Positions 30,120-55,368 of a stretch of 64,000 nucleotides of DNA are shown here, piece after piece. Location of the stretch: the NCBI GenBank assembly GCA_050613775.1, contig JBODTK010000001.1, positions 930,001-994,000 on the forward strand, read 5' to 3'. Source of the stretch: Neocallimastix sp. 'constans' (taxonomy: Eukaryota). The notes under the pieces were generated by a model. It did not search any database. It was not told the origin of the DNA and saw nothing but the letters and a program-made list of their open reading frames with translations. The position numbers and the translations under genes were made by a program. Numbering within the stretch: position 1 is the stretch's first letter; each line of letters starts with the position of its first letter.

Positions 30120-30568
30120 AACACTGATAACTGCTACTATCGATATTCTAATAAAATAATTTTACTAAACTATAGCAATTATTTATTTAGAATATAAGAT
30201 AGTGCATTATCAGAGTTTATATTTTTAACACTGATAACTGCTACTATCGATAATCTAATAAAATAATTTCACTTATTTAATGAAATTACTTATTTAGATT
30301 ATAAGATAGTGCATTATCAGAGTTTTTTTTTTGAACACTGATAACTGCTACTATCGATATTCTATTTCAGTAAATTCAAAAAATAGAAATTTACTATTTT
30401 AGAATATTAGATAGTGCATTATCAGAGTTCATTTTTGATTTATTTTACTTTCAGATACTTTTTATCCAAAACACTGATAACTGCTACTATCGATAATCAA
30501 AAGAAATTTTTCTTATTAAACTTTAATATCTAATTCTTTCGACTATAAGATAGTGCATTATCAGAGTT
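30120..30568. ncRNA. Array of four conserved ~98-nt hairpins (candidate structured ncRNA / miRNA-like precursor cluster)
   Basis: Units 30120-30217, 30227-30324, 30334-30429 and 30470-30568. Each starts aacactgataactgctactatcgata and ends agatagtgcattatcagagtt, which are imperfect reverse complements, and the interiors are variable but self-complementary. The repeat and hairpin structure is certain; the RNA function is inferred. Confidence 0.6.
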
Positions 30569-31811
30569 CGTTTTTTCTTTTTTTTTTTTATTATTCTAAC
30601 TCTATTTTTTTATTATTATTTTGTGAGGAAAAAATCATGAAAGGAAATTGCAATCCTTTTTATACTTTTTTTTATTTCATTTCATTTTTAATTAAATAAT
30701 TATATATATTATTTTTTTATATGTTTTTATTTCTAAATAAAAATTAACTTTAATTAATGTACTATAATATATATATATATTTATATTAATTATATATAAA
30801 TTAATACAAAATTTTGATATAAAAAAATTATTAAACTCTTATGAATATGATTGGATATTCATTTAAAGTTCAATTAAAAATGAAAAGTAAAAAAAAAATT
30901 TCATAAATTAAAACTTTTGTATATATCACAATTGAATATAATATATGAAAATTAAGTTTTCCAATTTATAAAAATTTAATAAAAAATTAATTAAAAAAAA
31001 TTATGAGTAATCTGTATAATATGTATATTAATGTATTAAAATTATGTAGTAAATATATTTTATGTAATATTACAATATATAATGAATAATATGTTTTATG
31101 TTAAATGTGAAATTAATATGTACTATATAGATGTGAAGTATTGTGTATTATGCAATATATTATGTAAAATGTATTCTTTATATATTAGAATAATTTGTAA
31201 TATAGAATGTAATAAAATATATTATTTTGTTATATATAATATTCATTATGTTATTATGTTATGTAATAAAGAAAATGTATTATATATTATGTTTTATGTA
31301 TTATTTATATAGTATGTAAAATGTAATAAATACATAATAAATACATAGTGGATTTGATATTGTACATTATATATTATATTTAAAATATGTAATTTACATT
31401 TATAATATCAATATATTGTATGTTTTATCACACAATATAAAATAATTAGTATTAATAATGCATTATGTATTATATATTAATATAATATGAATTAATGTAT
31501 TGTGCATTAATGTATTTAATATATTATGTATTACGTATTATGTATTATGTAGTTAATGTAGTTTAATGTAGTTTTAATTTATAATTATAAATATTTTATA
31601 TATAAAATAATATTTTTCAATTTTCAATGAATTTGCTTGACATACAACTGTTATAAAGTATTCCCTAGAAGGCATTAACTCTAGTAGTTAATAGTTAGTT
31701 ATGTAATTAGTTAATAATTTATTAATTTATTAATAAGAGTATAATAATTTTATATATTTTTAATTAATGCACTTTTTTTTTATGAATTTTTTTTTATTTA
31801 TTTATTTATTA

Positions 31812-32105
31812 CTCCATAAAAATTATTCTTATTTTAATTTTAAATTTTTTTTTTATTTATTTATTTATTACTCCATAAAAATTATTTTTATTTTAATTTT
31901 AAATTTTTTTTTTTGTAATAAAATATTTATTATTATTAAATTTTTTTATTTTTTTTTTAATTGTTATTAAATTAATTGAAATTTAATAAACTAAATAAAT
32001 AAATTATAGTAAAAAAAAAAATAAAATTTTAAAATAAAATTTAATTAAAAAAAAAAAAAAAATTTAAAAATGAAAATAATTAAAGTAAAAATAATTTTTA
32101 TGGAG
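31812..32105. mobile_element. Foldback / Tc1-mariner (Stowaway-like) MITE candidate
   Basis: ta|ctccataaaaattatt (31812, duplicated at 31871) is inverted relative to aataatttttatggag|ta (ends 32105). TA flanks both termini. Confidence 0.5.
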
Positions 32106-32359
32106 TAATAAATAAAAAAATTTTATATATATGTATATGTTTAAATTATTATTAATGACTGTCATAAAATTATGTATATTAAATCACTAATACACGTGAT
32201 TTATATGAATCTAATGTGCCACAAATGATGAATAGTTAAATACATAAAATGCTCAATGTAATATTTACATTAGAATAGAAAAGTTTAATAACAATTATAC
32301 TTTTATTAACATAATAAATATATGTTAGATTATGAAAATTACCTTTGATCTTCAAATTT

Positions 32360-40640: not shown

Positions 40641-41642
40641 TTAATGTGCATTATCTGGAACGGTTGCAAGTTTAGCAATATCTCTGTTATTTCTGTCACC
40701 ATAAATTTGTATGTTGTTAAGTTCCTTATTCAAAGCAGCATATTCTTCATCAGTGAGCTTAACATTAGCTGCACCAAGATTTTCTTTAATTCTTTCTTCT
40801 TTTCTCATTCCTGGAATTGGTACAATGAAATCTCCCTTTTTAAGTATCCAAGCTAAAGCAATTTGTGCCTTAGTACATTTTTTTTCTTGAGAGTATTTTT
40901 CAATCAAATCTAATAATGGCTGATTAGCATCCATATTTTCTTTCTTAAATCTGGTAATCACCGTTCTTAAATCATTATTAGCAAAATTATCTTTTGAGGT
41001 ATATTTACCACTTAAGAATCCATTACCCATTGGAGCAAAAGCTTCAAAACCAATACCTAATTCTTGACAAAGAGGAATAACATCCTTTTCCCATTTTCTT
41101 TCCATCATAGAATATTCACTTTGAACAACAGAAACAGAAGTAATAGCATGAGCTTTTTTTAATTGTTCAGCAGTTGGAGATGATAAACCCCAACAACGAA
41201 TTTTGCCTTCTTTAATTAACAAACCCATGACTCTAGCAACTTCTTCAAGATGCTCTTCATCCATAGCATGTAAAATATAAATATCAATGTAGTCAGTTTG
41301 TAAACGTTTTAAGGAACCTTCTAAACATTTTCTAATTCCTTCTTCTGAAAGCTTTTCTTCTTCAATATATTCTAATCCAGGAATTTTTGTTGGCCAAAAT
41401 TTATCAGAAATAATAATTTTATCTCTGGGTAAACCTTTTAAAGCTTTTCCAACAAATTCTTCATTTTTTAAATAGGAATACATTTCAGCAGTATCAAATA
41501 AATTACATCCATTCTCAAAGGCATAATGAACTAAACGAATACCTTCTTCTTCACTTGGACCATCACCATAGGCGTGAGTAAAACCCATACAACCTAAACC
41601 AATAGCAGATACTTTAATATTACCAAAGTTTCTAGTTTCCAT
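40641..41642 (-). CDS. Aldo/keto reductase (AKR13-like), intronless
   Basis: VSAIGLGCMG, FDTAEMY (catalytic D and Y), ISDKF (K), SLKRLQTDYIDIYILH (H), VQSEYS and IPGMRKEERIKENL. Confidence 0.95.
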   Translation of the reverse strand: METRNFGNIKVSAIGLGCMGFTHAYGDGPSEEEGIRLVHYAFENGCNLFDTAEMYSYLKNEEFVGKALKGLPRDKIIISDKFWPTKIPGLEYIEEEKLSEEGIRKCLEGSLKRLQTDYIDIYILHAMDEEHLEEVARVMGLLIKEGKIRCWGLSSPTAEQLKKAHAITSVSVVQSEYSMMERKWEKDVIPLCQELGIGFEAFAPMGNGFLSGKYTSKDNFANNDLRTVITRFKKENMDANQPLLDLIEKYSQEKKCTKAQIALAWILKKGDFIVPIPGMRKEERIKENLGAANVKLTDEEYAALNKELNNIQIYGDRNNRDIAKLATVPDNAH

Positions 41643-45273: not shown

Positions 45274-46106
45274 TAAAAAATATATATAAAAAAAATAATA
45301 ATAAAAGAAATTTTAAAATATCCACAATATGATTTATGTAAACCATGAAATCAATTAATATTTATAATATTTATTTTATTCATTTCTTTTATTTATTTTT
45401 AATAAATATTTACAGGGTCTTTTGGTGTTGCCATAGATTTATTTGGATAATATTTTCCTCTTGTAATGATTTCCGCTTTAGTTTCTTCTTGTAGTTTATC
45501 TAAAAATGAAGCTTTTGTTAACATATAACGATTTTTTACATCATTAATTTCGACATTTTTGAAAAATTTTCCTTTATTAGAACTTTTATCGTTTAAGTTA
45601 TATGAGTCTGAATTTGAATTCACTATTACAGAAGTTGTCGTAGTAGTAGTTGTGGCTGTTGTTGTAGAAGTTAAATTATTATTTTTAATATTAATTCCTT
45701 TAGCTTGTAAATTTGCTGCAATCTTTGCCAATTCTTCATTAACTTGCTGTTGAATTGCTGTATTAATATTTATTTTATTTTATTTTATTTTATTTTTATC
45801 ATTATTAATATTTTAATATCAAAAATTTAATTAAAAAAAAAAAAAAACTATTAATATATTATCTTATTATTACTGAATTTTAAATTTATATTAAATATTT
45901 AAAAAAATAAATTACAATTTGAGTCTTTGGATGTATCAGGTAATGAAGGAGATACTGATGAAGTATTTGAAGCAATAGGATTATTTGTAGTAGGTGTGGT
46001 TGAATTATTGCTTTTAATATTGATTCCTTTGGATTGTAAATTTGCTGCAATCTTCGACAATTCTTCATTAACTTGCTGTTGAATTGCTGTATTAATATTT
46101 ATTAAG

Positions 46107-46139
<33 letters not shown>

Positions 46140-46596
46140 TTAATATCAAAAATTTAATAAAAATAATATTATTAATATATTATCTTAATTTATTATTACA
46201 TTTATATACTACATTTATTTTTTATTATCAAAAAATATTGATAATATCTTTTCTTTAACTTTGATTATATTAAAATTTAAATTTATACTAAATATACAAA
46301 AAAAAAATATTAATTACAATTTGAACCCTTAGATGTATCATTCGGTACTGGAGATGTTAAATTTGAATTTGTGTTTTGAAGTTTAGCAGCAGCAAGTGCA
46401 TCAGAAGGGTTTGGTGGTGTTGCTACTTCATATTCATTTGGACTTCCCTGGTCATCCCATTTTCTCTTACGACTACAATTTTAATATTAATAATATGAAT
46501 ATTTTTTTATCATATAAAATTAGTGTTTATGCTATATATACATATATTATTGATATTTATATTGGTTATTTACATTTTATTATCAACTGTCACCAT
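43771..46596 (-). CDS. KHDC4: KH-domain RNA-binding protein KHDC4/BLOM7-like with Pro/Tyr-rich C-terminus, ~7 exons
   Basis: Exons approx 46596-46574, 46474-46318, 46086-45916, 45757-45415, ~45158-45006, ~44747-44525 and ~44359-43771. Motifs RKRKWD, VEINDVKNRYMLTK...IITRGKY and LIGIQGANVKHIHRETGARLQLRGKGSGFIEPTSGTEAFEPM. Confidence 0.85.
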
Positions 46597-49004: not shown

Positions 49005-49650
49005 AAAAAAAAATATTAATAAAATACTTTAACAATTATATAGATTTATTTATTTAAAAAAAATATTAATACAATACTTTAACAATTATATAGATTTACT
49101 TATTTAAAAAATATTAATAAAATATTTAAACAACTATTAATAAAATACTTTAACAATTATATAGATTTATTTATTTAAAAAATATTAATAAAATATTTAA
49201 ACAACTATTAATAAAATACTTTAGCAATTATATAGATTTATTTATTTAAAAAAAATATTAATAAAATACTTTAACAATTATATAGATTTATTTATTTAAA
49301 AAAAATATTAATAAAATACTTTAACAATTATATAGATTTATTTATTTAAACAACTATTAATAAAATACTTTAGCAATTATATAGATTTATTTATTTAAAA
49401 AAAATATTAATAAAATACTTTAACAATTATATAGATTTATTTATTTAAACAACTATTAATAAAATACTTTAGCAATTATATAGATTTATTTATTTAAAAA
49501 AAATATTAATAAAATACTTTAACAATTATATAGATTTATTTATTTAAAAAATATTAATAAAATATTTAAACAACTATTAATAAAATACTTTAACAATTAT
49601 ATAGATTTATTTATTTAAAAAAAATATTAATAAAATATTTAAACAATTAT
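49005..49650. repeat. ~50-bp minisatellite inside the MULE
   Basis: Repeated aatattaataaaatactttaacaattatatagatttatttatttaaa with variants (about a dozen copies). Confidence 0.9.
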
Positions 49651-49991
49651 TAATAAAATTAATTATAAACATTAATAATAAAATATAAAAATATAAAAAT
49701 ATATTATTGATATTAATAATAAAGTATAAAAATATAGGATTATTTATTTTAAAAAAAATATTAATAAAATATTTAAACAATTATTAATAAAATAAATTAT
49801 AATAATAAAATTATAGAATATTTATTTAAACTACATAAATTTTATCAAGTATATAAACATTTTAACTTTTTAATAATTATAAAATTTTAATTAATAAATT
49901 TAATTATAAGTTTTTGTATGAAAGAATTTTAATGATTTTTTCTTTTGGAAATTCCTCTGTCATTTCATAATTATTTATTATTAAATAATAT

Positions 49992-51413
49992 TTATAAAAT
50001 ATTATTTAAATTAGTTAAACATTCAAACCACAATTTAGTAAGATCACTTCTATCATATTTAATATTAATTAACTTGGCTTCTTTATTTTTGTATTTTTCA
50101 ATTAAGATATTAATTTCATCAGTTTTTGTTTTTGTTTTTTTTTTCATTCTCCAAATTCCTTTTATTTTCATTTGGTAATCATAATATGATAAATGTTCCT
50201 GTTCTTTTAATTTATTTATTAATTCATAAAAATTTGGTTTCATTGGAAATAGTTTATTTAAAGAATTATTGAGTGATTCTGAAGCATTATTGGTTATATG
50301 TTCAATATTATTATAATAATTCCAACTTTTCATATCGTAACCAATTAAATATGTTTCATAAAAATATTCTAAAAATTTTAAAAATTGACAAGAATTTTTT
50401 TCAATGGATTTAGTTTTAATTAATGAAAAAATATCCATTATGTATTCAGGGTTGATAAATGGTAAGTTTGAAATTCCTTTGTAATAATTAAATATTTTTT
50501 CATCATCGTTCACTTCATTACGGCACAATTCATTTTTTTTAATTTCTAATAAATTTTTATAATGCCAAATACAGTATTTAATATTTATATTAGGAAATAT
50601 TTTTTTAACTGCTTTGGATATGCCTTTTTCAAAATCGCAATGTACATTTTTTGGTTCAGTTATAATATTATTATTAGAATTTTGTTTTAATTTATTGAAT
50701 AACATTTTATATGTTTTTTGCTTTTTATTTCTTAATATTGCATAAGAAGTAGTATAAAAACTATTCAATTCTTTAACGTAAGTTCTAGTAATAAACACTT
50801 GTTGACTAAATTTAGGTGCGATATAAAAAGTACCATCCACAAATATATCATTATTATATTTCTTAAATAATTTTGCTTGAAAAGGGGATTGAAAAATTAC
50901 TAAATCAGAATTTTTGAATATCATAAAATCTTCATTTCGTTCAGTTTTATAATATTCAGATTCATTAGGAATTTCATTAAAAGTTGTTACATTGGATGGT
51001 AGTTTTTTATTAATACTTCTTAATATTAGAGTTTTAACTGAAATATATTCTGGACACGGATATATAAATCCCATTTCTTTAGAAATTTCATTATATAGTC
51101 TTTTTCGTTTTATATCAAAAGGATTTGAATGTTTTTTAATTTCATCTTTAATTTTATGTTTCATTACAGATAGGGATACACTATATTCGTTTCCAGGATG
51201 ATTATGTAAACTCTCATATTTTAAGATTTCTTTCTCATTATTTAAAATAATAAAAGATTTACATTTATTATTTTTTTTATATTCGGTACATTTATAAACT
51301 TTTGAATTATCTTTCCTTGAATGTGAAAAATTAAATTTATATTGTTTATTAATAATGATTTGTTCTTCTCCTTTATTAGACTCACTTATATAAATAGTTA
51401 TGTTTTCTTCCAT
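49992..51413 (-). CDS. MULE DDE transposase (473 aa) with N-terminal FLYWCH/WRKY-like zinc finger
   Basis: YKC..C...HNH zinc finger, FVDGTF (D1), HCDFE (D2), CIWH (CxxH) and TNNASES (E). The ORF is uninterrupted. Confidence 0.93.
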   Translation of the reverse strand: MEENITIYISESNKGEEQIIINKQYKFNFSHSRKDNSKVYKCTEYKKNNKCKSFIILNNEKEILKYESLHNHPGNEYSVSLSVMKHKIKDEIKKHSNPFDIKRKRLYNEISKEMGFIYPCPEYISVKTLILRSINKKLPSNVTTFNEIPNESEYYKTERNEDFMIFKNSDLVIFQSPFQAKLFKKYNNDIFVDGTFYIAPKFSQQVFITRTYVKELNSFYTTSYAILRNKKQKTYKMLFNKLKQNSNNNIITEPKNVHCDFEKGISKAVKKIFPNINIKYCIWHYKNLLEIKKNELCRNEVNDDEKIFNYYKGISNLPFINPEYIMDIFSLIKTKSIEKNSCQFLKFLEYFYETYLIGYDMKSWNYYNNIEHITNNASESLNNSLNKLFPMKPNFYELINKLKEQEHLSYYDYQMKIKGIWRMKKKTKTKTDEINILIEKYKNKEAKLINIKYDRSDLTKLWFECLTNLNNIL

Positions 51414-54105: not shown

Positions 54106-55368
54106 ATGAGTAATTCAGGTTATATGAAAATTAACACTGAAATTGATATTCAAGAATGTATAATTGAAAATAATATAAATGGTAATTCAAGTAATGATGA
54201 AAATGATATTACCCTAACAGATAATAGTATAACTATAAGGGATAGTCTTGATGATAATGAAGTAAGGTTAGAATCTATTATTAAACAGGAACAAAAACCA
54301 AAAAGAGTTTATTGGGTAGATTGGCTTAGAGTTTTTGCTAGTATGTTAGTAGTTTATATTCATTGTTCCGGAATTGCATTAAAACCTAGGAAACTTTTTT
54401 CATATAATTGGAATGTATTATTTTTCCATAATAGTATACCGAGACCGGCTGTTCCATTATTTTTAATGATTAGTGGAATATTTTTTTTAAATCCAAAGAG
54501 AAAATTATCTTATAAAAAACTCTATAAAAAGAATGTAGTACGTTTAATAAAATGTTATGTAGTGTGGGTTTTATATTATAAAATTATAAATACATATATA
54601 ATCAATTATACCGGTCGTAAATATGTTTTTAATATGGATCTAGTGAAACAAGCATTGAAAAATATTATAACAATAAGAACTCATGAGCATTTATGGTATT
54701 TAAGAACAGCATTATATCTTTATATTCTAACACCTCTTTTCAGAATAATTTCAGCTAGAAAAAAACTTGCTTGGATGATAACAATTTTCTTTATCATATT
54801 TACACAATTTATACCAACTGTTTTTTATTATCCTTTAGACAAAAAAAATTCAGTACATCATATATTAGATATAACAGGAAACATTAGTTTTGGGGTATAT
54901 TTCTTTATGGGTTATTTATTATATGATTATACATTCTCCAAAAGGATTTATGTATACCTTATTGAATTGATAGGATTTGCTAGTATATTTTTAACAATAC
55001 ATTTGAGATTTATGGCTTGTCACCGTAAGAATAAAGAGAATAATGATTTTGGTTCTACTGAATCCTTTAATGTCGCACTTTCAGCTTATGGTATTTTTAC
55101 ATTTTTCCAATACACGGTTAATGATAGAATTGAACCATTAATGAAAAAAAGAAATATCAAAAAAGTTATAATGAAAATGTCTGAATGTTCATTTGGTGTC
55201 TATTTAACTCATATGACAGTTTATCATTTCTTTTATCGTATAGGATTACATTCACAGACTTTTAATCCTGTATGGTGGGTAATTGTTTATTCAGCCTTAG
55301 TTTATGTATTTTCGTTTATTTTAACGTTCCTTTTAAGAAAAATACCATTCGTTAAATCAATTATATAA
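54106..55368 (+). CDS. Acyltransferase-3 family membrane O-acyltransferase (WecH/YiaH/OafA-like), intronless
   Basis: RVYWVDWLRVFASMLVVYIH, AVPLFLMISG, HLWYL, YFFMGY and SFGVYLTH motifs with multiple hydrophobic helices. Confidence 0.92.
   Translation: MSNSGYMKINTEIDIQECIIENNINGNSSNDENDITLTDNSITIRDSLDDNEVRLESIIKQEQKPKRVYWVDWLRVFASMLVVYIHCSGIALKPRKLFSYNWNVLFFHNSIPRPAVPLFLMISGIFFLNPKRKLSYKKLYKKNVVRLIKCYVVWVLYYKIINTYIINYTGRKYVFNMDLVKQALKNIITIRTHEHLWYLRTALYLYILTPLFRIISARKKLAWMITIFFIIFTQFIPTVFYYPLDKKNSVHHILDITGNISFGVYFFMGYLLYDYTFSKRIYVYLIELIGFASIFLTIHLRFMACHRKNKENNDFGSTESFNVALSAYGIFTFFQYTVNDRIEPLMKKRNIKKVIMKMSECSFGVYLTHMTVYHFFYRIGLHSQTFNPVWWVIVYSALVYVFSFILTFLLRKIPFVKSII

What the first reader, a model, noticed from the sequence alone, without database searches (positions are those of the whole stretch)
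30120..30568. Tandem array of four ~98-nt hairpins with invariant bulged outer duplex and covarying inner stems: candidate polycistronic miRNA-like/structured ncRNA locus
Seen: four units (30120-30217, 30227-30324, 30334-30429, 30470-30568; 98, 98, 96 and 99 nt) separated by T-rich linkers of 9, 9 and 40 nt. The first 26 nt (aacactgataactgctactatcgata) and last 21 nt (agatagtgcattatcagagtt) are identical in all four. They pair as aac/gtt, an a-a mismatch, ctgataa/ttatcag, a bulged C, tgc/gca, a bulged T and actatc/gatagt. The ~50-nt interiors differ strongly yet have near-constant length and all fold back. Perfect arm conservation alongside diverged interiors and linkers is not what neutral tandem duplication produces. 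Inference: selection acts on a ~22-nt duplex in a fixed-length hairpin, as in miRNA/miRNA* clusters. I know of no such locus described in anaerobic gut fungi. It is intergenic, ~950 bp downstream of the ankyrin gene, with no ORF.
Basis: partly seen in the sequence, partly recalled or inferred. Interest (0 to 1): 0.92.

Follow-up and report, generated by a model that had tools for sequence, protein, structure and literature searches.

The report
Four-hairpin microRNA-like gene in gut fungus
A gut fungus carries four back-to-back hairpins that share one unchanged bulged stem and turn up in RNA libraries; they are likely a precursor cut into one small regulatory RNA, which would be a first for this early-branching fungal group.

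Summary
There are four 96-99-nt hairpins at 30120-30568 with identical 26- and 21-nt arms, and no further copies in the window. They are 7 of the 8 most stable 100-nt folds in 64 kb (z -5 to -9.9). Only 1 of 51 basal columns varies against 21 of 36 inner columns (p 1e-9), and 3 to 5 inner pairs change on both sides. New here: contigs from 4 of 4 metatranscriptome runs laid cover the array without mismatch, so it is likely a non-coding RNA (longest ORF 15 aa). Folding energy, G-U pairs and A-rich linkers lean to the minus strand. The host is Neocallimastix-like; published genomes of this group have Dicer and Argonaute but no RdRP. Best reading (0.58): a polycistronic microRNA-like precursor giving four copies of one ~22-nt RNA from the basal duplex. 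No small-RNA data, target, genome-wide copy number or relative could be examined, so membership is unproven. No Rfam match. A partial resemblance to integron attC sites fails four defining features. Interest 0.63.

The parts
30470..30568 (-). Hairpin unit 4 (first in a minus-strand RNA), 99 nt, most diverged interior
   Evidence: covered by RNA contigs in 4 of 4 runs laid
30334..30429 (-). Hairpin unit 3, 96 nt
30227..30324 (-). Hairpin unit 2, 98 nt
30120..30217 (-). Hairpin unit 1, 98 nt; covered from 30121 in one RNA run and only from 30197-30202 in three
30120..30145 (-). Invariant 26-nt arm (also 30227-30252, 30334-30359, 30470-30495); carries the two bulged bases; 3' arm on the minus strand
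30197..30217 (-). Invariant 21-nt arm (also 30304-30324, 30409-30429, 30548-30568); 5' arm on the minus strand
30124..30145 (-). Predicted 22-nt guide: begins with U exactly at the inner edge of the invariant arm (also 30231-30252, 30338-30359, 30474-30495). Inferred, not observed
   Evidence: duplex registers with 2-nt 3' overhangs listed
30218..30226 (.). Linker 1, 9 nt, A-rich on the minus strand
30325..30333 (.). Linker 2, 9 nt; its T run is one base longer in two RNA runs
   Evidence: table 4
30430..30469 (.). Linker 3, 40 nt
   Evidence: spanned by RNA contigs
30569..30644 (-). Possible A-rich leader; RNA contigs run 29-81 letters past 30563 into a stretch the tool skipped, so collinearity is assumed
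   Evidence: table 8
30656..30664 (-). TATA-like element 20 nt beyond the longest RNA contig's assumed end; a weak hint of a minus-strand promoter
   Evidence: chance about 0.02 for a 10-position slot; motif recalled
26227..29175 (+). Neighbouring ankyrin-repeat ORF, 982 aa; a neighbour, probably not part of the array's RNA

Best explanation
The locus is an array of four fixed-length hairpins with one invariant bulged basal duplex, present in RNA libraries, and it is likely a polycistronic microRNA-like precursor that Dicer would cut into four copies of one ~22-nt regulatory RNA. Shown: the four hairpins, the invariant 22-bp basal duplex, compensatory change in the ~20-bp upper stems, no ORF, and presence in metatranscriptome contigs. 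Inferred: a separate ~500-nt RNA polymerase II transcript from the minus strand, starting near 30640. Inferred: each arm (41-52 nt from base to loop) holds two Dicer lengths, so the upper stem serves as a ruler whose pairing and length matter but whose sequence does not. Inferred: the product is the 22-mer that starts with U at the inner edge of the 26-nt arm, is loaded on Argonaute and silences mRNAs in trans, with four copies raising the dose. The target is unknown.
For: Conservation contrast: 1 of 51 basal versus 21 of 36 inner columns vary, Fisher 1.3e-9; 0 of 200,000 permutations give two such invariant runs. It persists for A/T columns alone, 1 of 35 versus 19 of 32, p 2.7e-7. Structure: 7 of the 8 most stable non-overlapping 100-nt folds among 12,780 windows are these units. 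Minus-strand alignment: 96.5% of cells paired, 5 of 36 pairs changed on both sides, 2 of 500 shuffles reach the covariation score; one pair runs A-U, G-U, G-C across units. RNA: 6 of the 20 runs holding the stretch are on record as RNA; in 4 of 4 laid, from four studies, contigs of 123-444 nt match the array with 0 other letters and read through the T runs between units. Strand: minus folds better in 4 of 4 units, 8 versus 1 G-U pairs in the MFE folds, consensus -28.3 versus -23.1 kcal/mol, and linkers A-rich on minus like the 100 nt upstream of the ankyrin and aldo-keto reductase genes. Register: on minus, a 22-nt strand with 5' U lies wholly inside the invariant arm and its 21-nt partner varies only near its 3' end; the 5' U preference of fungal small RNAs is recalled. 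Host: a 90%-identity cluster mate of a window protein is labelled Neocallimastix californiae. Four Neocallimastigomycota genomes have Dicer, Argonaute and QIP but no RdRP (PMC5796279, passages), so fold-back RNA is a plausible source of endogenous small RNA (inference).
Against: No small RNA was seen; contigs cannot show strand, ends or level, and RNA libraries can hold DNA. Four RNA runs from the same samples or studies hold next to none of the words. The strand-neutral count is 4 G-U versus 0 A-C, p 0.125. On the plus strand only 3 pairs covary and 56 of 500 shuffles match that count. Four related paralogues give weak covariation statistics on either strand. Both arms are invariant, whereas passenger strands usually drift (recalled), which points to protein recognition of the whole duplex. 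The loop-side distance between the predicted strands is about 45 nt, while well-supported fungal loci are usually under 20 nt (PMC9757828 section 11). Only 3 bp plus a mismatch lie at the very base, little room for a basal cut. No site in the window pairs with any of four candidate strands clearly better than shuffled guides do (best -16.5 to -20.5 versus -15.1 to -21.9 kcal/mol).
Confidence: 0.58

Rival explanations
1. An unprocessed structured RNA whose four identical bulged duplexes are binding sites for one protein (a sponge or scaffold); the upper stems only keep the fold.
For: Both strands are invariant over 22 bp, including the mismatch and two bulged bases. Contigs span several units intact. 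There is little stem below the duplex for a nuclease.
Against: Arm length of two Dicer registers and near-constant unit length are not needed for a binding site. Loops are not conserved. No Rfam family with this form.
Confidence: 0.17
2. The invariant duplex is a processing handle and the variable upper stems are the payload: four different small RNAs released at a fixed distance from the base.
For: Constant geometry with a variable inner duplex of about one Dicer length.
Against: The inner stems are very AU-rich, still 50-80% alike and covary like a neutral stem under structural selection.
Confidence: 0.07
3. Single-stranded DNA hairpins that work like integron attC sites (empty cassettes) for an unknown tyrosine recombinase.
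For: Units begin with AAC and end with GTT exactly at the edge of invariance. The minus-strand bulges fall at attC positions 16 (G) and 20 (A), on the arm opposite AAC, as in attCoxa2 (PMC5027507). Length is within 57-141. The minus strand is also the more stable as DNA in 4 of 4 units.
Against: The full RYYYAAC and GTTRRRY boxes are met in 0 of 4 units. The central spacer is paired at 4 of 5 positions. There is no bulged T at 23/24 and only 3 bp, not 6, between the first and last bulge. Only 9-40 nt lie between sites. No integrase domain among 23 ORFs scanned. No prokaryotic look-alike: 13 of 13 GTDB pattern hits lack the ends and inner stem.
Confidence: 0.05
4. Cis-acting hairpins in a long 3' UTR of the ankyrin mRNA (plus strand).
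For: Lies 945 nt downstream of the stop; both are present in the same RNA runs.
Against: Folding and G-U pairs lean to the opposite strand. No joint between the ankyrin contigs and the array is listed (table 5).
Confidence: 0.06
5. Tandem copies of a miniature inverted-repeat transposon, or a neutrally decaying tandem repeat, seen in RNA libraries through read-through or carried-over DNA.
For: About 100 nt with imperfect terminal inverted repeats. A MULE transposase ORF lies in the window. Genome-wide copy number is untested.
Against: No target-site duplication for 3 of 4 units or for the array; unit 2 shows only T-run matches. The same bulges are kept while the interiors diverge and re-pair. 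No other copy in 64 kb by covariance model: next best 13 bits versus 93-107 for the training units.
Confidence: 0.07

Closest known systems
Fungal miRNA-like (milRNA) hairpin loci
   Same: Intergenic, non-coding fold-back without secondary stems or large loops in the duplex; host group has Dicer, Argonaute and QIP.
   Different: Four near-identical units in one RNA; about 45 nt between the predicted strands versus usually under 20. The words 'polycistronic', 'tandem', 'chytrid' and 'Neocallimast' do not occur in the main text of the 41-species re-analysis, and six zoosporic-fungus names, including 'Neocallimast', are absent from its 9 supplements held as text.
Polycistronic animal and plant miRNA clusters with repeated identical mature RNAs; loop-first plant precursors such as miR319/miR159 (all recalled)
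   Same: Tandem hairpins on one transcript, conserved duplex with free loops and linkers; conserved duplex in the basal half of a long stem.
   Different: The duplex sits almost at the base with about 5 bp below it; both strands are invariant; no sequence match to any Rfam miRNA family (best E 4.1, across a unit junction).
Integron attC sites (attCoxa2, VCR)
   Same: AAC...GTT ends, bulged G16 and A20 on the arm opposite AAC, variable terminal structure, length range.
   Different: No full R boxes, no unpaired central spacer, no T23/24 bulge, no cassette genes, no integrase, eukaryotic host.
Y RNA / nematode stem-bulge RNAs (features recalled)
   Same: About 100 nt, conserved terminal stem with a bulged C on the plus strand, variable interior, T run behind each unit, tandem arrangement.
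   Different: No Rfam match; 9-nt linkers leave no room for upstream promoters; RNA contigs read through T runs of 5-10 that would stop polymerase III.

Membership tests
miRNA / fungal milRNA | Fold-back whose duplex has no secondary stems and no large loops (criteria quoted in PMC9757828) | tested here: met
   4 of 4 units, both strands
miRNA / fungal milRNA | Intergenic, no overlap with CDS or Rfam structural RNA | tested here: met
miRNA / fungal milRNA | Precursor transcribed | tested here: inconclusive
   Contigs in 4 of 4 RNA runs laid; contigs cannot exclude carried-over DNA or give strand
miRNA / fungal milRNA | Discrete 20-24-nt products with 2-nt 3' overhangs, stranded, Dicer-dependent | not testable with these tools
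   No small-RNA library among the 24 runs listed; all are kept as contigs
miRNA / fungal milRNA | [quoted passage not shown] | tested here: inconclusive
miRNA / fungal milRNA | Complementary target | tested here: inconclusive
   None above shuffled guides in the 64-kb window; no transcriptome available
Integron attC site | AAC/GTT triplet and bulged G at 16 opposite AAC | tested here: met
   4 of 4 units
Integron attC site | RYYYAAC / GTTRRRY R boxes | tested here: not met
   0 of 4 units for either box
Integron attC site | Unpaired central spacer of 5-6 nt | tested here: not met
   4 of 5 positions paired
Integron attC site | Bulged T at 23/24, six pairs from the first bulge | tested here: not met
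   Position paired; only 3 bp between the two bulges
Integron attC site | Cassette genes between sites; integrase | tested here: not met
   Linkers 9-40 nt; no integrase domain in 23 of 24 ORFs of 100 aa or more scanned; rest of genome not held
MITE | Target-site duplication | tested here: not met
MITE | Many dispersed copies | not testable with these tools
   No genome held; no other copy in the window
Y RNA, stem-bulge RNA, snoRNA, snRNA, ribozyme families in Rfam 15 | Match to the family model | tested here: not met
   One chance match at E 4.1 in 29500-31500; none at gathering score in the window

The most novel reading that the evidence does not exclude
An independently evolved kind of small-RNA gene in anaerobic gut fungi: a polycistron of ruler-length (~98-nt) hairpins, each two Dicer lengths tall, from whose invariant basal duplex one or both strands are released by a route that differs from animal, plant and Neurospora pathways. 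It would be the first microRNA-type gene in a zoosporic fungus that lacks RdRP. (A bolder but much less likely reading, attC-like DNA sites in a eukaryote, is listed among the rivals at 0.05.)
Probability: 0.42. Interest if true: 0.83.

Novelty: new variant of a known kind. Interest (0 to 1): 0.63.

Why it matters
No endogenous hairpin small RNA of anaerobic gut fungi turned up in the literature searches run here (open-access library only). A true microRNA-type gene in this early-branching lineage would bear on how often microRNA pathways arose and on what Dicer and Argonaute do in fungi without RdRP. It gives an exact, cheap test: one predicted 22-mer at four places. It could also serve as a native scaffold for gene knock-down in fungi that are valued for biomass breakdown and hard to engineer. 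Even if not diced, it is a structured RNA unknown to Rfam and under clear selection.

Tried and rejected
Relatives: two-arm pattern in viral contigs 0 hits and in metagenome contigs 0. The ankyrin protein also found 0 relatives there among 208 candidate stretches, so that collection probably lacks the host and these blanks say little. GTDB genomes: 13 hits, none with the ends or inner stem, about what a 21-base pattern gives by chance. Single-arm pattern in viral contigs: 101 hits, none with both arms; one exact 21-of-21 match to the short arm lies inside an ordinary phage-type reading frame and is taken as chance. Plasmids: 142 records, none covering 80%; the 10 listed cover 10-20% of the query. 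Earlier findings: nothing by sequence, place or words. Flank control for carried-over DNA: the flank pieces listed are 33-40 letters long, and several flank bins are empty (31024-31600 in three runs, 30014-30114 in two), while DNA-type runs hold up to 0.95 of the words of 30040-30680 and RNA runs 0.40-0.69. This fits a separate transcript, but lack of cover proves nothing: only 32 of 241 pieces were shown, repeats were skipped, and the flanks are poorer in G+C (12% versus 22%). Three of four runs stop at 30197-30202, a weak hint of an end or cut in unit 1. No DNA run was laid, so strain and species variation is open. tRNA: none. Polymerase III genes: T runs of 5 or more on both strands inside the covered span. 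Targets in the window: none above shuffles. C/D and H/ACA snoRNA, hammerhead and SECIS motifs were considered by eye from recalled consensus and did not fit. PMC12663654 and PMC7154892 (passages) do not mention the Neocallimastigomycota names searched and add nothing specific.

Full report
Observation. Each arm occurs four times in the 64-kb window, all exact and all in the array, against none in 100 shuffles. Every unit folds into one long stem on either strand with z between -5.0 and -9.9. Seven of the eight most stable non-overlapping 100-nt folds among 12,780 windows on both strands are these units, although they are only 21-27% G+C. A covariance model built from the four units finds no fifth copy in the window.

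Selection. Counting from the ends without gaps, 1 of 51 basal columns varies against 21 of 36 in the next 18 columns of each arm (Fisher 1.3e-9; 0 of 200,000 permutations give two invariant runs this long). The contrast holds for A/T columns alone (1 of 35 versus 19 of 32), so it is no artefact of composition. The single variable basal position is unpaired, so the invariant block is a 22-bp duplex with one mismatch, two single bulges and a 1x2 loop. Interiors are 50-80% identical. In the minus-strand alignment 5 of 36 pairs change on both sides and 2 of 500 shuffles reach the covariation score; on the plus strand it is 3 pairs, with 56 of 500 shuffles matching that count. With four related sequences these counts are suggestive only.

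Host and surroundings. The window is very AT-rich and holds ankyrin-repeat, GDSL lipase, aldo-keto reductase, acyltransferase, PACRG, KH-domain and MULE transposase frames (23 of the 24 frames were scanned). No whole genome is held. The array lies 945 nt past the ankyrin stop and has no ORF over 15 aa.

RNA. Of 24 runs listed, 20 from 19 studies hold the stretch and 6 of these are on record as RNA; four further RNA runs of the same samples or studies hold next to none of its words. I laid 4 of the 6. In all four, contigs match the array with no other letters: 30121-30563 in four overlapping pieces, 30202-30563, 30197-30563, and 30201-30351 plus 30362-30563, each running 29-81 letters further into a skipped low-complexity stretch. 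They read across the T runs between units, which argues against separate polymerase III genes (inference). Contigs give no strand, ends or level, and DNA can be present in RNA libraries; the flank control is given under Tried and rejected. I judge a separate transcript likely (about 0.85), not shown.

Strand. The minus strand folds better in 4 of 4 units, has 8 G-U pairs against 1 in the MFE folds, and gives the better consensus. One column pair runs A-U, G-U, G-C across units. The strand-neutral count is 4 G-U to 0 A-C, p 0.125. Linkers and leader are A-rich on minus (skew -0.47 on plus), like the 100 nt upstream of the ankyrin and aldo-keto reductase genes (+0.51, +0.46); the other three regions tested show weaker skews of +0.06 to +0.16. 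A TATA-like element stands at 30664-30656 on minus, 20 nt beyond the longest contig's assumed end. Together these favour minus at roughly 3 to 1.

Mechanism. Each arm is 41-52 nt from base to loop with 36-41 pairs, about two Dicer lengths. Among the registers with 2-nt 3' overhangs listed, one on minus gives a 22-nt strand that starts with U exactly where invariance begins and lies wholly inside the 26-nt arm; its partner starts with a G-C pair and varies only near its 3' end. That is the pattern expected of a guide and its passenger (recalled). One plus-strand register also lies wholly within invariant sequence (22 and 20 nt, starting with C and G), so the register is a prediction. Four Neocallimastigomycota genomes encode Dicer, Argonaute and QIP and lack RdRP (PMC5796279, passages). 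I therefore propose a polycistronic precursor that yields four copies of one small RNA. Against it: both arms are invariant, the lower stem is short, the distance between strands is about 45 nt where fungal loci usually have under 20 (PMC9757828, section 11 and passages), and no target stands out in the window.

Rivals. A repeated protein-binding RNA explains the invariance of both strands but not the fixed height. The attC resemblance is real: AAC and GTT ends and bulges at positions 16 and 20 match attCoxa2 (PMC5027507, passages and first part of the Introduction). But R boxes, unpaired spacer, third bulge, cassettes and integrase are missing, so it is not a member. A MITE is unlikely for want of target-site duplications, but copy number is untested. 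An ankyrin 3' UTR is unlikely on strand grounds, and no joint is listed.

Novelty. There is no Rfam match, no relative in the collections on hand (they probably lack the host), no earlier finding, and no paper on endogenous hairpin small RNAs in these fungi in searches. The 41-species re-analysis of fungal hairpin RNAs does not name this phylum in its main text or nine supplements. Searches were seen as listings, apart from the papers cited. Subscription papers were not searched. It works most like a microRNA cluster; membership is untested on its defining feature.

Verdict. A real, selected, probably transcribed four-hairpin locus; best read as a microRNA-like polycistron (0.58). New variant of a known kind; interest 0.63.

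Noticed in passing
window 30330-30499 (run X10): Contig breaks fall exactly at the end of unit 3's long arm (30359) and the start of unit 4's (30470), and one record fits two places. This is what a form lacking unit 3 and linker 3 would give: a three-unit allele or a template switch. Inferred from break points only; no such joint is listed.
   Followed up: partly
window 31787-32121: Two to three 59-nt tandem copies, one of which forms a 44-nt, 95% complementary inverted repeat with 32078-32121; looks like a small decayed inverted-repeat element.
   Followed up: no
window 49006-49824 and 49992-51413 (-): About 12 copies of a 50-nt repeat next to an intact 473-aa MULE/FLYWCH transposase frame; no clear terminal inverted repeats found.
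   Followed up: partly
window 22784-23368, 40641-41642, 54106-55368: GDSL lipase, aldo-keto reductase and acyltransferase-3 frames (the last two single long frames of 333 and 420 aa), of kinds often acquired from bacteria in these fungi (origin recalled, not tested).
   Followed up: no
window 45670-45909 and 45999-46237: A 240-nt direct duplication at 82% identity in or near the KH-domain gene.
   Followed up: no
window 6452-6609: Three 49-51-nt tandem copies at 96% identity.
   Followed up: no
window 31000-31600: Stretch rich in short TATG-type repeats with strong G skew (+0.37) and little RNA cover.
   Followed up: no
window 30430-30454 (+): Linker 3 holds a pyrimidine tract ending in CAG that resembles a 3' splice site; RNA contigs read through it unspliced.
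   Followed up: partly
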